A stretch of DNA of 64,000 bases from positions 1,280,001-1,344,000 of the forward strand of contig CP000069.1 in assembly GCA_000002445.1 (NCBI GenBank), read 5' to 3'. The notes beneath the pieces are model-generated. The model had not been told where the DNA came from. It ran no database searches and saw only the letters and a program-made list of their open reading frames with translations. Both the position numbers and the translations under genes were made by a program. Position 1 is the stretch's first letter. Every line of letters begins with the position of its first letter. This DNA is from Trypanosoma brucei. Taxonomy: Eukaryota. Shown in pieces: positions 5,581-7,404 of this stretch.

Positions 5581-7404
5581 ATGCTCCGGTTAGCTAACAA
5601 GTTTACCGTCAAAATAAGCTTAATTTCACGGCTTCTTAAAGAAATCCCCTTTTGTGTGATGAGCAAACATGAAGAAGACTGCCAGAAGGCCCCGGAACAC
5701 GACAAACTAACGTTAACAAATGCGGAAGAGGGGAAGGTAGTGACTCGGTTCCCCCCCGAAGCGAGCGGATTTCTCCACATCGGTCATGCGAAGGCGGCCC
5801 TTATCAATAGTATGCTCGCGTTGAAGTACAAAGGAAAACTTGTAATGCGGTTTGACGACACTAACCCATCCAAAGAAAAGGACCACTTTGAGCAAGCGAT
5901 TTTGGATGATTTGGCAACCCTTGGTGTCACGTGGGATGTGGGTCCAACATATTCGTCCGATTACATGGAATTACTATACGAGAAAGCAGATGAGCTCATT
6001 GAAAAGGGTCTGGCCTATTGTGATAAAACAACACGGGAGGAAATGCAAAAATGTAGGTTCAACGGTGTTCCCACGAGCTACCGAGATATTTCCATTGAGG
6101 AGACGAAAAGGATGTGGAGTGAGATGAAAGAGGGTTCCGCAGAGGGCCAAGAGACTTGTTTACGGGCAAAGATATCCGTTGATAACGAGAATAAAGCGAT
6201 GAGGGATCCTGTTATTTATCGAGTAAATCTGACGCCACACGCAAGACAGGGAACCAAATACAAGGCGTACCCAACATACGACTTTTGCTGCCCCATTATT
6301 GATTCTGTCGAAGGAATTACACACGCTCTTCGGACGAATGAGTATCATGATCGGAACGACCAGTATTATTGGTTTTGTGATGCATTAGGGTTGAGGAAGC
6401 CCATTGTTGAAGATTTTTCAAGATTGAACATGGAGTATGCTGTGATGTCGAAGAGAAAGTTGACACAACTTATTGACTCTAAGGTTGTCGATGGCTGGGA
6501 CGACCCCCGGTTTCCGACAGTACGAGCGTTGGTAAGACGAGGGTTGAAAATGAGTGCCCTAAGACAATTTGTTCAGGAGCAGGGTATGTCAAAAACCGTC
6601 AACTTTATGGAATGGTCGAAGTTGTGGTACTTCAACACACAGATTCTCGACCCTTCAGTACCTCGGTACACTGTTGTTTCTAATACACTCAAGGTCCGAT
6701 GTGTTGTTGAGGGAATAGGCGGCCTGGAAAAGTGTGAGAAATTGCTGCACAAAAAAGCCCCGGATATGGGGAGCAAGGTGTTTTATAAATCCGGTGTCAT
6801 ATTTCTCGATGCTGAGGACGTTGCTCTTTTAAAAGAGGGAGATGAGGTTACGCTGATGGACTGGGGGAATGCGTTTATAAGGAATATTCGCACCAGTGGC
6901 GAATCTGGAACAATTACTGATGCCGATATCGTACTCAATCTTGAAGGCGATGTGAAGAAGACTAAGCACAAGTTAACGTGGGTTGCCGAAAATCCTGAGG
7001 CAGAGGTTATGGAGATAAATGAGTATGACCATTTACTTACCAAGAAGAAGCCGGATCCGGAGGAATCTCTAGATAGTATCCTAGCCGCTGTGACGAAATA
7101 TACCCAAGAAGTGTACTCTGAGGCAGCGACTAGCGCTCTGAAGAAGGGTGATATAATCCAACTGGAGCGTCGTGGTTACTACATTGTTGATAATGTCATA
7201 CCGAGAAAAGTCCTTATCGCTATTCCAGATGGTCGCGAGAAAGTGAATCACTTGAGCGCGAAGGCTCATCATCTGAAGTATGTCGCAAAGGTGTCGCAGC
7301 CCGCAGCGGCAAACGATTTAGCAGCAAAAAGGGCCGCCAAAGCAGCTAAAAAGGCAGCACAAAAGCAAGACTCAAAAAGTCAGAACAAAGAACAAGCTGT
7401 CTAG
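5581..7404 (+). CDS. class I glutamyl/glutaminyl-tRNA synthetase, most likely cytosolic-type GluRS, with N-terminal presequence-like extension; a second in-frame ATG lies at 5659
   Basis: HIGH motif in FPPEASGFLHIGHAKAA. KMSKS-type motif as VMSKR. Eukaryotic GluRS/GlnRS-like catalytic and anticodon-binding regions. Lys/Ala-rich C-terminal tail. The first 26 residues, MLRLANKFTVKISLISRLLKEIPFCV, are basic and amphipathic with no acidic residue. Confidence 0.85.
   Translation: MLRLANKFTVKISLISRLLKEIPFCVMSKHEEDCQKAPEHDKLTLTNAEEGKVVTRFPPEASGFLHIGHAKAALINSMLALKYKGKLVMRFDDTNPSKEKDHFEQAILDDLATLGVTWDVGPTYSSDYMELLYEKADELIEKGLAYCDKTTREEMQKCRFNGVPTSYRDISIEETKRMWSEMKEGSAEGQETCLRAKISVDNENKAMRDPVIYRVNLTPHARQGTKYKAYPTYDFCCPIIDSVEGITHALRTNEYHDRNDQYYWFCDALGLRKPIVEDFSRLNMEYAVMSKRKLTQLIDSKVVDGWDDPRFPTVRALVRRGLKMSALRQFVQEQGMSKTVNFMEWSKLWYFNTQILDPSVPRYTVVSNTLKVRCVVEGIGGLEKCEKLLHKKAPDMGSKVFYKSGVIFLDAEDVALLKEGDEVTLMDWGNAFIRNIRTSGESGTITDADIVLNLEGDVKKTKHKLTWVAENPEAEVMEINEYDHLLTKKKPDPEESLDSILAAVTKYTQEVYSEAATSALKKGDIIQLERRGYYIVDNVIPRKVLIAIPDGREKVNHLSAKAHHLKYVAKVSQPAAANDLAAKRAAKAAKKAAQKQDSKSQNKEQAV

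What the first reader, a model, noticed from the sequence alone, without database searches (positions are those of the whole stretch)
5581..5661. tRNA synthetase carries a 26-residue mitochondrial-presequence-like extension before a second in-frame ATG: likely dual targeting by alternative trans-splicing
The ORF opens MLRLANKFTVKISLISRLLKEIPFCV (basic, amphipathic, no acidic residues) and then MSKHEED..., which looks like the mature cytosolic start 78 nt downstream. Trypanosomes import all tRNAs and use single genes for cytosolic and mitochondrial Glu/Gln/Ile-tRNA synthetases. For several of these, alternative SL-acceptor sites upstream or downstream of the first ATG produce the long (mitochondrial) and short (cytosolic) isoforms. 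The sequence arrangement here fits that mechanism.
Basis: partly seen in the sequence, partly recalled or inferred. Interest (0 to 1): 0.5.

Follow-up and report, generated by a model that had tools for sequence, protein, structure and literature searches.

The report
Known dual-start trypanosome glutamyl-tRNA synthetase gene
This is the single glutamyl-tRNA synthetase gene of Trypanosoma brucei, whose short basic N-terminal extension and second start codon were already proposed in 2010-2012 to give a mitochondrial and a cytosolic enzyme through alternative spliced-leader addition, so the finding is real but already described.

Summary
ATG 5581 opens a 607-aa eukaryote-type GluRS, and a second in-frame ATG lies 78 nt downstream at 5659. 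The 26 residues between them are basic (5 K/R).

The window is T. brucei chromosome 6 and the gene is Tb927.6.4590.
- Nilsson 2010 (SL trapping; MitoProt 0.91; 20-aa MTS) reports a major SL site inside the annotated ORF and minor sites upstream.
- Rettig 2012 proved this mechanism for IleRS and named GluRS as a likely further case.

My sequence work agrees:
- The only strong polypyrimidine tract (5556-5575) abuts ATG1.
- The first AG after it is 5592/3, between the two ATGs.
- One public RNA-seq contig joins the last 10 nt of the spliced leader exactly at 5593|5594.
- Three other contigs run upstream past ATG1.

The new detail is evolutionary. Trypanosomatids ancestrally carry two ATGs 7-8 codons apart in front of a conserved motif (VNIHLKALTLTKTYF). 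T. brucei and the T. cruzi clade each lost the second ATG independently, and the motif decayed in both.

Import of the long form has never been shown for GluRS, and importome data are weak. Verdict: already known, low interest.

The parts
5581..7404 (+). Long ORF of glutamyl-tRNA synthetase (607 aa, 68.93 kDa), Tb927.6.4590 orthologue; proposed mitochondrial precursor
   Evidence: ORF. Pfam tRNA-synt_1c plus two anticodon-binding domains. Eukaryotic GluRS structures are the best hits. 100% identical to the T. brucei-group GluRS P0001. The calculated mass equals the 68.931 kDa listed for Tb927.6.4590.
5581..5658 (+). 26-codon N-terminal extension MLRLANKFTVKISLISRLLKEIPFCV (presequence-like)
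   Evidence: K+R = 5 and D+E = 1 (E21); residues 1-20 are net +5 with no acid; hydrophobic moment 0.55. MitoProt p = 0.91 and MTS 20 aa in Nilsson 2010 Table S7. AlphaFold pLDDT is below 50 for residues 1-38.
5602..5652 (+). Codons 8-24 (FTVKISLISRLLKEIPF): decayed copy of the conserved kinetoplastid N-terminal motif (M)SVNIHLKALTLTKTYF. Codon 8 (TTT, Phe) sits where other species have the second ATG
   Evidence: Protein alignment A1; upstream-extended translations of orthologous loci; DNA alignment A3.
5659..7404 (+). Short ORF from the second ATG (581 aa, 65.9 kDa); proposed cytosolic isoform. The folded core starts about 15 residues further in
   Evidence: PDB alignments start at residues 43-45 of the long form. 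The AlphaFold confident core starts at about residue 41.
5556..5575 (+). Polypyrimidine tract CCTTTTTTTCCCTGCTGTTG abutting ATG1. It is the only strong tract within 280 nt upstream of the gene
   Evidence: No AG occurs between 5556 and 5591.
5592..5593 (+). First AG after the tract: internal spliced-leader acceptor (exon starts at 5594; 65-nt 5'UTR to ATG2). Further AGs at 5600/1, 5617/8 and 5640/1 also lie before ATG2
   Evidence: Logan RNA-seq contig L008 has TACTATATTG (the SL 3' end) joined at 5593|5594. The AG at +11 from ATG1 is positionally conserved in T. vivax, T. grayi and T. melophagium. Nilsson 2010 reports the major site as internal.
5447..5555 (+). Zone of candidate upstream (minor) acceptors: AG 5447/8, 5480/1, 5510/1, 5528/9 and 5554/5, behind a weak pyrimidine-rich stretch at 5380-5445. 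Splicing here gives mRNAs that retain ATG1
   Evidence: RNA-seq contigs L009, L010 and L011 are colinear with the genome up to 5461, 5459 and 5481 and carry poly(A). Nilsson 2010 reports minor sites upstream.
5463..5581 (+). Upstream ORFs present only on long mRNAs: ATG 5463 (37 codons) and ATG 5538 (12 codons) both stop at TGA 5574-5576. That stop overlaps ATG 5576, a one-codon uORF with stop TGA 5579-5581, which in turn overlaps ATG1 (TGATGTGATG)
7405..7462 (+). 3'UTR up to the major poly(A) site
   Evidence: Kolev 2010 Table S13 gives the major PAS at chr6:1287462 with a 58-nt 3'UTR. Contig L011 turns into poly(A) at about 7461.

Best explanation
The window is T. brucei chromosome 6 (about 1,280,001-1,344,000). 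The ORF is the single eukaryote-type glutamyl-tRNA synthetase gene, Tb927.6.4590, and it is the first gene of a polycistronic unit.

Two classes of mRNA are made from it.
- Most pre-mRNA receives the spliced leader at the first AG (5592/3) after the strong polypyrimidine tract that abuts ATG1. This removes ATG1. The first AUG is then 5659, which gives a 581-aa enzyme with an acidic N-terminus that stays in the cytosol.
- A minority is spliced at weaker acceptors upstream (AGs between 5447 and 5555). These mRNAs keep ATG1 and encode 26 extra residues. Residues 1-20 form a basic, moderately amphipathic presequence that directs a small pool of enzyme into the mitochondrion, where imported tRNA-Glu must be charged. 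Upstream ORFs and weak start contexts on the long mRNA probably keep that pool small.

What is shown and what is inferred:
- Shown here: the anatomy, the splice signals, conservation, and transcripts of both types.
- Shown in the literature: SL sites on both sides of ATG1, and mitochondrial plus cytosolic GluRS activity from one gene.
- Inferred: that the long protein is made, is imported, and is the only source of the mitochondrial enzyme.
For: Identity of the gene:
- GluRS by Pfam and PDB, and 100% identical to T. brucei-group GluRS.
- Kolev 2010 places the poly(A) site at chr6:1287462 with a 58-nt 3'UTR. That fixes the window offset at exactly 1,280,000.

Literature:
- Nilsson 2010 reports a major SL site internal to the ORF and a minor one upstream, with MitoProt 0.91 and a 20-aa MTS.
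- Rettig 2012 proved the mechanism for IleRS, named GluRS as a candidate, and cites Rinehart 2004 for a single gene giving both activities.

Splice signals in the window:
- The tract at 5556-5575 abuts ATG1. The first AG after it is 5592/3, and no ATG lies between 5582 and 5658.

Transcripts:
- Contig L008 carries the last 10 nt of the SL joined at 5593|5594 (the SL sequence is confirmed in the literature).
- Contigs L009-L011 extend to 5459-5481 and include ATG1; L011 ends in a poly(A) run at the published site, and L009/L010 continue past it.

Conservation:
- ATG1 followed by a basic heptapeptide, in frame, is present in all 8 trypanosomatid loci examined.
- A pyrimidine- or T-rich stretch abuts ATG1 in the five Trypanosoma loci with enough upstream sequence, and an AG follows at +6 to +11 in all six.

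Protein properties:
- Net +5 with no acid in residues 1-20, the most MTS-like N-terminus of 23 ORFs in the window, against a short-form N-terminus of net -3.
- Residues 1-38 are predicted disordered and lie outside the fold.
Against: - No experiment has shown import of the long GluRS isoform or its processing.
- In Peikert 2017, GluRS sits in the non-mitochondrial reference set. That set excludes TargetP-positive proteins, so TargetP was evidently negative on the long annotation.
- GluRS is absent from the fully held list of new ATOM40-dependent mitochondrial candidates. Its ATOM40-RNAi ratio in organelle fractions is 0.67 with p = 0.079.
- Kolev 2010 lists the gene neither among ORFs with an internal SAS nor among alternatively processed genes.
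- In L. tarentolae, 92 SL reads all map 21 nt upstream of ATG1, so alternative splicing is not the mechanism there.
- The SL junction in L008 shows only 10 nt of SL, followed by unrelated sequence. The contig is a chimera.
- Two other ORFs in the window with the same 'tract abuts ATG' geometry look like mis-called starts. The geometry alone does not prove that ATG1 is used.
- The hydrophobic moment is only in the top 5-7% of shuffles.
Confidence: 0.68

Rival explanations
1. Leaky scanning, not splice-site choice, makes the two proteins. Long mRNAs carry both AUGs. Ribosomes that skip the weak AUG1 start at AUG2, so a single mRNA class would be enough. This may operate alongside alternative splicing.
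For: - Both AUGs have weak contexts by the T. brucei rules of Stettler 2026 (strong = -3A, +5C). ATG1 has -3G/+5T and ATG2 has -3G/+5G.
- No other AUG lies between the two.
- L. tarentolae GluRS shows only the long mRNA, with a 21-nt 5'UTR. That matches the AG at -23 in L. mexicana, so Leishmania must use something other than alternative splicing.
- Three of four RNA-seq contigs are of the long type.
Against: - Nilsson 2010 reports that the major SL site lies downstream of ATG1, so most mRNA cannot encode the long form whatever the scanning behaviour.
- The strong tract and first-AG geometry predicts the internal site.
- The L008 junction lies at 5593|5594.
Confidence: 0.15
2. ATG1 is an unused in-frame ATG sitting in the splice-signal region, an annotation artefact. 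Only the 581-aa protein is made, and any mitochondrial pool enters by an internal or non-canonical signal, or charged tRNA is imported.
For: - The same 'tract abuts ATG1, first AG inside the ORF' geometry occurs at two other ORFs in the window whose N-termini are just translated pyrimidine tract.
- TargetP is evidently negative, and GluRS is not in the significant importome.
- Parrot 2021 discusses cryptic internal MTSs for many aaRSs.
Against: - ATG1 and the following basic heptapeptide (M-[LIF]-[RK]-L-A-x-K in four Trypanosoma species) are conserved in frame in 8 of 8 species, while the upstream DNA is not alignable.
- T. brucei and T. vivax have no indel across the 35 codons up to DKL.
- Transcripts covering ATG1 exist.
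- Nilsson 2010 found upstream SL sites.
- MitoProt gives 0.91.
Confidence: 0.1
3. One long protein is made and is itself dually localised, because the presequence is weak or ambiguous. The M27 start has no functional importance.
For: - The extension is only moderately amphipathic.
- In species with the ancestral layout, the two possible N-termini differ by only 7-8 residues and both look presequence-like.
Against: - A major internal SL site means most mRNA lacks ATG1.
- The conserved motif has decayed in T. brucei, as expected if it is no longer part of the abundant cytosolic enzyme.
Confidence: 0.07

Closest known systems
T. brucei isoleucyl-tRNA synthetase (Rettig et al. 2012, PMC3273800)
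   Same: A single gene serves both compartments. It has two in-frame AUGs. The minor SL site upstream gives a long mRNA with a presequence (mitochondrial), and the major SL site downstream of AUG1 gives a short, more abundant cytosolic form.
   Different: For IleRS the two mRNAs, the two proteins and isoform-specific RNAi were demonstrated. For GluRS only SL-site maps and predictions exist. The GluRS extension is shorter: MitoProt predicts 20 aa against 43 aa.
Published annotation of this very gene: Tb927.6.4590 Glu-RS in Nilsson et al. 2010 (Fig. 8, Table S7)
   Same: It is the same locus. [quoted passage not shown]
   Different: Nothing differs in substance. This report adds the nucleotide-level signal anatomy, an RNA-seq junction and cross-species comparison.
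Leishmania tarentolae GluRS LtaP30.3280 (Parrot et al. 2021, PMC8319005)
   Same: It is the orthologue. It has an N-terminal predicted MTS (MitoProt 0.62) and two closely spaced in-frame ATGs.
   Different: Only one SL site was seen, 21 nt upstream of ATG1 (92 reads), and the authors classed it as 'unpredictable mechanism'. The ATGs are 8 codons apart, and the conserved VNIHLK motif is intact and follows ATG2.
Twin-AUG dual targeting of aaRS in yeast and plants (alternative transcription or translation starts, e.g. yeast HTS1/VAS1). This comparison is from general knowledge and was not tested here.
   Same: One gene gives a long form with a presequence and a short cytosolic form from an in-frame downstream AUG.
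   Different: In those cases the 5' ends are set by transcription start choice or leaky scanning. Here they are set by the choice of trans-splice acceptor on a polycistronic precursor.

Membership tests
Class I Glu/Gln-tRNA synthetase, eukaryote-type GluRS | Rossmann-fold catalytic domain with HIGH and KMSKS-type motifs plus the two C-terminal anticodon-binding domains; closer to GluRS than to GlnRS | tested here: met
   Pfam PF00749 (E = 3e-108), PF03950 and PF20974 all match. HIGH is present (FLHIGHAKAA) and so is VMSKRK. The best PDB hits are eukaryotic GluRS at E = 1.7e-148, against GlnRS at about 1e-89.
Trypanosome aaRS dually targeted by alternative trans-splicing (IleRS type, Rettig 2012) | A single nuclear gene supplies both the cytosolic and the mitochondrial activity | not testable with these tools
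   One window cannot show single-copy status. The literature states that no second gene exists (Nilsson 2010) and that both activities come from one gene (Rinehart 2004 as cited by Rettig 2012). Rinehart 2004 itself could not be read.
Trypanosome aaRS dually targeted by alternative trans-splicing (IleRS type, Rettig 2012) | Two in-frame AUGs with an open frame and no competing AUG between them | tested here: met
   ATG 5581 and ATG 5659 are in frame, with no stop and no other ATG in any frame between them.
Trypanosome aaRS dually targeted by alternative trans-splicing (IleRS type, Rettig 2012) | SL acceptor sites used on both sides of AUG1, with the downstream one the major site | tested here: met
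   The signals fit: tract at 5556-5575, first AG at 5592/3, and weaker AGs upstream. L008 has an SL-3'-end junction at 5593|5594, and L009-L011 run upstream of ATG1. Nilsson 2010 published major-internal and minor-upstream sites. Relative usage could not be re-measured here, and L008 is chimeric.
Trypanosome aaRS dually targeted by alternative trans-splicing (IleRS type, Rettig 2012) | The extension has the properties of a mitochondrial presequence | tested here: inconclusive
   For: net +5 and no acid in residues 1-20, the most MTS-like of 23 window ORFs, and MitoProt 0.91. Against: the hydrophobic moment is only in the top 5-7% of shuffles, and TargetP is evidently negative because the protein was kept in a reference set that excludes TargetP positives.
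Trypanosome aaRS dually targeted by alternative trans-splicing (IleRS type, Rettig 2012) | The long protein is imported into mitochondria, the short protein stays cytosolic, and isoform-specific knockdown affects only mitochondrial charging | not testable with these tools
   This needs experiments. The ImportOmics ratio of 0.67 (p = 0.079) in organelle fractions is only a trend.

The most novel reading that the evidence does not exclude
The 26-residue 'presequence' is not a lineage-specific add-on. It is a derived state of an ancestral kinetoplastid twin-ATG module.

- Ancestral layout: ATG1, then 7-8 basic codons, then ATG2, then a conserved motif (S)VNIHLKALTLTKTYF. T. vivax, T. grayi, T. 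melophagium, Leishmania and Leptomonas keep this layout. Phytomonas shows the same pattern in its annotated protein.
- T. brucei and, independently, the T. cruzi/T. conorhini clade lost ATG2. The cytosolic start moved about 20 codons downstream, and the motif, now confined to the rare long isoform, decayed.
- This implies that the motif has a function in the abundant isoform of other kinetoplastids that T. brucei and T. cruzi dispensed with.
- It also implies that the internal acceptor (the AG in the Leu-Ala codons at +11) predates the split of the genus.
Probability: 0.55. Interest if true: 0.3.

Novelty: already known. Interest (0 to 1): 0.15.

Why it matters
Trypanosomes import all mitochondrial tRNAs and must place nearly every cytosolic-type aaRS in two compartments from one gene. 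Alternative SL-acceptor choice is the one mechanism proven for this, in IleRS. GluRS is a textbook candidate for the same mechanism and was already listed as such, so the finding adds no new biology.

Two things have modest value:
- A nucleotide-level map for an isoform-specific experiment. The 5449-5580 segment is unique to long mRNAs, and the AGs at 5592-5641 are unique to the short route.
- The observation that the position of the cytosolic start codon shifted twice independently while the ATG1/tract/AG arrangement stayed put. This bears on how such dual-targeting modules evolve, and on why Parrot 2021 found alternative starts 'poorly conserved'.

Tried and rejected
- Per-site SL counts for this gene could not be obtained. 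Kolev 2010 Table S4 (all SAS) is truncated in the held copy, and the gene is absent from Tables S1 and S3. The supplements of Siegel 2010 and Rettig 2012 are not held. Rinehart 2004 is not held.
- I looked for RNA-seq contigs encoding exactly the short protein, hoping for clean SL junctions. Four Logan contigs were found. Only one has an SL-like junction, with just 10 nt of SL followed by an unrelated antisense TPR-gene segment, so it is a chimera. The other three contain ATG1, so the 581-aa gene call on them is the gene caller's choice and not evidence of splicing.
- I used AlphaFold on the T. brucei long form and on L. mexicana GluRS to test whether the N-terminal motif is part of the fold. 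In both, the tail has low confidence (pLDDT below 50 to about 56). This is consistent with a flexible presequence but says nothing about the motif's role.
- I considered that 'tract abuts ATG1' alone proves an internal acceptor with a used ATG1. I rejected this because two other ORFs in the window with that geometry are probably mis-called starts.
- I searched the ImportOmics data for proof of a mitochondrial pool and found only a non-significant trend.
- No MitoFates or TargetP run was possible. I substituted charge and hydrophobic-moment calculations.
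Full report
**Observation.** ATG 5581 opens an ORF that ends at TAG 7402-7404 and encodes 607 aa. A second in-frame ATG lies at 5659, 78 nt (26 codons) downstream. No other ATG in any frame lies between them, and the nearest in-frame stop upstream is TAG 5509. The extension is MLRLANKFTVKISLISRLLKEIPFCV. Only residues 1-20 are acid-free, at net +5. The N-terminus of the short form (residues 27-52) is acidic, net -3. 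The maximal 18-residue helical hydrophobic moment is 0.55. That is the highest among the 23 long ORFs of this window, but it reaches only the top 5-7% of shuffles of the peptide itself. A second in-frame ATG this close is common in the window. The Met pair alone is therefore unremarkable, and the combination with charge, splice signals and conservation is what carries weight.

**Identity.** The protein is a class I Glu/Gln-type synthetase. Pfam PF00749 matches at E = 3e-108, together with both anticodon-binding domains. It is closest to solved eukaryotic GluRS structures (E = 1.7e-148, against about 1e-89 for GlnRS). It is 100% identical to the GluRS of the T. brucei group. Kolev 2010 Table S13 gives the major poly(A) site of Tb927.6.4590 at chr6:1287462 with a 58-nt 3'UTR. 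With the stop codon ending at window 7404, this places the window at exactly chr6 1,280,001-1,344,000. The calculated mass of the 607-aa form, 68.931 kDa, equals the value listed for Tb927.6.4590 in Peikert 2017. Kolev's Table S14 lists the gene as the first of a plus-strand polycistronic unit after a divergent strand-switch region. Consistent with that, the window has no ORF of 200 aa or more before 5578, and all later ones are on the plus strand.

**What is already published.**
- Nilsson et al. 2010 state that Glu-RS has an N-terminal MTS and no separate cytosolic gene. [quoted passage not shown] - Rettig et al. 2012 demonstrated the mechanism for IleRS: two mRNAs, two proteins, and isoform-specific RNAi. 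[quoted passage not shown]
The SL-map test it proposed has been done, with the supporting outcome.

**Anatomy of the splice signals.**
- The only strong polypyrimidine tract within about 280 nt upstream of the gene is 5556-5575 (CCTTTTTTTCCCTGCTGTTG). It ends 5 nt before ATG1.
- No AG occurs from 5556 to 5591. The first AGs after the tract are at 5592/3, 5600/1, 5617/8 and 5640/1, all between ATG1 and ATG2.
- By the usual rule (a tract of at least 10 nt followed by the first AG; Rettig 2012 discussion), the predicted main acceptor is 5592/3. That gives an mRNA whose first AUG is 5659, with a 65-nt 5'UTR.
- Upstream AGs (5447/8, 5480/1, 5510/1, 5528/9, 5554/5) sit behind only a weak pyrimidine-rich stretch, which fits minor use.
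- Long mRNAs would carry upstream ORFs. ATG 5463 and ATG 5538 share a TGA stop at 5574-6. That stop overlaps ATG 5576, a one-codon uORF, whose own stop overlaps ATG1 (TGATGTGATG).
- Both ATG1 (-3G, +5T) and ATG2 (-3G, +5G) have weak contexts by the T. brucei rules of Stettler 2026.

**Transcript evidence.** I looked up public assemblies that encode exactly the short protein and found four Logan RNA-seq contigs.
- L008 matches the window downstream of 5593. Immediately before that it reads TACTATATTG, the last 10 nt of the T. brucei spliced leader (sequence confirmed in the literature). This is a junction exactly at the predicted internal acceptor. Further upstream the contig is an unrelated antisense gene, so it is chimeric and counts as a single weak observation.
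- L009, L010 and L011 are colinear with the genome up to 5461, 5459 and 5481. They therefore include ATG1. L011 ends in a poly(A) run at about 7461, the published site; L009 and L010 continue beyond it. Long transcripts therefore exist, with 5' ends near AG 5447/8 and AG 5480/1.
- Relative abundance cannot be read from assemblies.

**Comparative evidence.** I fetched the orthologous loci of T. vivax, T. grayi, T. conorhini, T. melophagium, T. cruzi marinkellei, L. mexicana and Leptomonas seymouri. Wherever downstream sequence is present (all but the short T. cruzi marinkellei contig), the locus is syntenic with a downstream DEAH helicase. I then extended the reading frames upstream.
- Every species has an in-frame ATG1 followed by a short basic peptide.
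- In T. vivax (MLKLATK-M), T. grayi (MIRLAKQ-M), T. melophagium (MFRLAKK-M), L. mexicana (MRRFRPIH-M) and Leptomonas (MRRLLRPP-M), a second ATG follows after 7-8 codons. It directly precedes a conserved motif, (S)VNIHLKALTLTKTYF, which is also seen in many more distant homologues.
- In T. brucei, codon 8 is Phe. Residues 8-24 (FTVKISLISRLLKEIPF) align without gaps to the motif but have lost most of its conserved residues, and the next Met is M27.
- T. cruzi marinkellei and T. conorhini show the same kind of change, with the next Met at position 31.
- A neighbour-joining tree of the catalytic core groups T. brucei with T. vivax (94.5% bootstrap). It groups the T. cruzi/T. conorhini pair with T. 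grayi and T. melophagium (83.5%). A brucei+cruzi+conorhini clade appears in only 0.5% of replicates. Loss of ATG2 and decay of the motif therefore happened twice.
- At the DNA level ATG1 is an invariant column and the sequence upstream of it is not alignable.
- In the five Trypanosoma loci with enough upstream sequence, a pyrimidine- or T-rich stretch abuts ATG1; the T. cruzi marinkellei contig holds only 10 nt before ATG1. An AG at +11, in the Leu-Ala codons tTAGCx, is positionally conserved in T. brucei, T. vivax, T. grayi and T. melophagium. The T. cruzi clade has AGs at -6 and +6.
- In L. mexicana an AG at -23 reproduces the 21-nt 5'UTR measured in L. tarentolae.

**Structure.** AlphaFold2 with a 41-sequence alignment gives pLDDT below 50 for residues 1-38 of the T. 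brucei long form. The confident core starts at about residue 41. In L. mexicana the motif forms a helix (residues 13-25) of low confidence, about 56. The extension is therefore a flexible tail and is not part of the fold. The short form still retains about 15 residues ahead of the core.

**Evidence against, and caveats.**
- Import of the long isoform has not been shown.
- In Peikert 2017, GluRS sits in the non-mitochondrial reference set, which excludes TargetP-positive proteins. It is absent from the fully held table of new ATOM40-dependent candidates. Its ATOM40-RNAi ratio in organelle fractions is 0.67 with p = 0.079, against 0.96 for SAM50 RNAi.
- Kolev 2010 did not flag the gene in the tables of internal or alternative processing sites.
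- In L. tarentolae all 92 SL reads include ATG1, and Parrot 2021 class GluRS as 'unpredictable mechanism'. Leishmania must use leaky scanning or an ambiguous signal.
- Two other ORFs in this window with a tract abutting the first ATG (34993, 53904) translate the tract itself and look like mis-called starts. Conservation of ATG1 is what separates GluRS from those cases.

**Mechanism and rivals.**
- Alternative trans-splicing (confidence about 0.68). Major SL addition at 5592/3 removes ATG1 and yields the 581-aa cytosolic enzyme. Minor upstream addition keeps ATG1 and yields a precursor with a presequence of about 20 residues for the mitochondrion.
- Leaky scanning on the long mRNA (about 0.15). 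It probably contributes and may be the ancestral or Leishmania mode.
- ATG1 is never used (about 0.10). Its conservation argues against this.
- A single long protein with dual location (about 0.07). The internal major SL site argues against this.

**Novelty and score.** The finding is already known for this exact gene. What this analysis adds is the precise signal map, one junction-level observation, and the evolutionary point that the twin-ATG module is ancestral and the cytosolic start moved downstream twice. Interest is low (0.15).

Noticed in passing
window 5602-5652; loci L001, L002, L004, L005, L007 (first about 25 codons after their ATG2): A conserved N-terminal motif, (S)VNIHLKALTLTKTYF, follows the second ATG in most kinetoplastid GluRS and in more distant homologues (e.g. 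P0049-P0051, VNIHSKADLFSTTYLG). It has decayed in T. brucei and in the T. cruzi/T. conorhini clade. Its function is unknown, and AlphaFold gives it a low-confidence helix.
   Followed up: partly
window 5463-5583: There is a cascade of overlapping stop and start codons just before ATG1 (TGATGTGATG). uORFs from 5463 and 5538 stop at TGA 5574-6, which overlaps a one-codon uORF (ATG 5576, TGA 5579-81). That stop in turn overlaps ATG1. The cascade is present only on long mRNAs, and no ATG lies directly before ATG1 in T. vivax, T. grayi or T. melophagium.
   Followed up: partly
window 1-5500: There is no ORF of 200 aa or more here, and all later ORFs are on the plus strand. Kolev 2010 Table S14 lists Tb927.6.4590 as the first gene of a plus-strand transcription unit after a divergent strand-switch region, so this stretch is probably a Pol II transcription start region.
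   Followed up: partly
window 34993-35661 and 53904-56144: Two other ORFs have a polypyrimidine tract abutting or covering their first ATG, with the first AG inside the ORF. Their N-termini (MLFFFFSLSLY..., MMIMSRATDFILLSYFFF...) look like translated splice-signal sequence. Their true starts are probably downstream Met codons (aa 40 and aa 48).
   Followed up: partly
window 7240-7401 (residues about 555-607): The GluRS has a lysine/alanine-rich C-terminal extension (20% K in the last 50 residues). AlphaFold predicts it as one long helix (573-606). It matches the trypanosomatid-specific lysine-rich C-terminal extension described by Parrot 2021.
   Followed up: partly
L008 (Logan ERR7929163_228), locus positions 1-1435: This RNA-seq contig joins the antisense of an unrelated TPR-repeat gene to 10 nt of the spliced-leader 3' end and then to GluRS from window 5594. 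How this chimera arose (cDNA artefact or assembly artefact) is unexplained.
   Followed up: partly
window 7634-10687: The downstream neighbour is a DEAH/HA2-type helicase ORF. The GluRS-helicase gene order is conserved in the six trypanosomatid loci that hold downstream sequence.
   Followed up: no
window 12992-14326: The N-terminus MCRHLFWRYRLPMPCRPPTCAVALLF has 4 K/R and no acidic residue in its first 20 residues. It is the only other presequence-like N-terminus among the 23 long ORFs.
   Followed up: no
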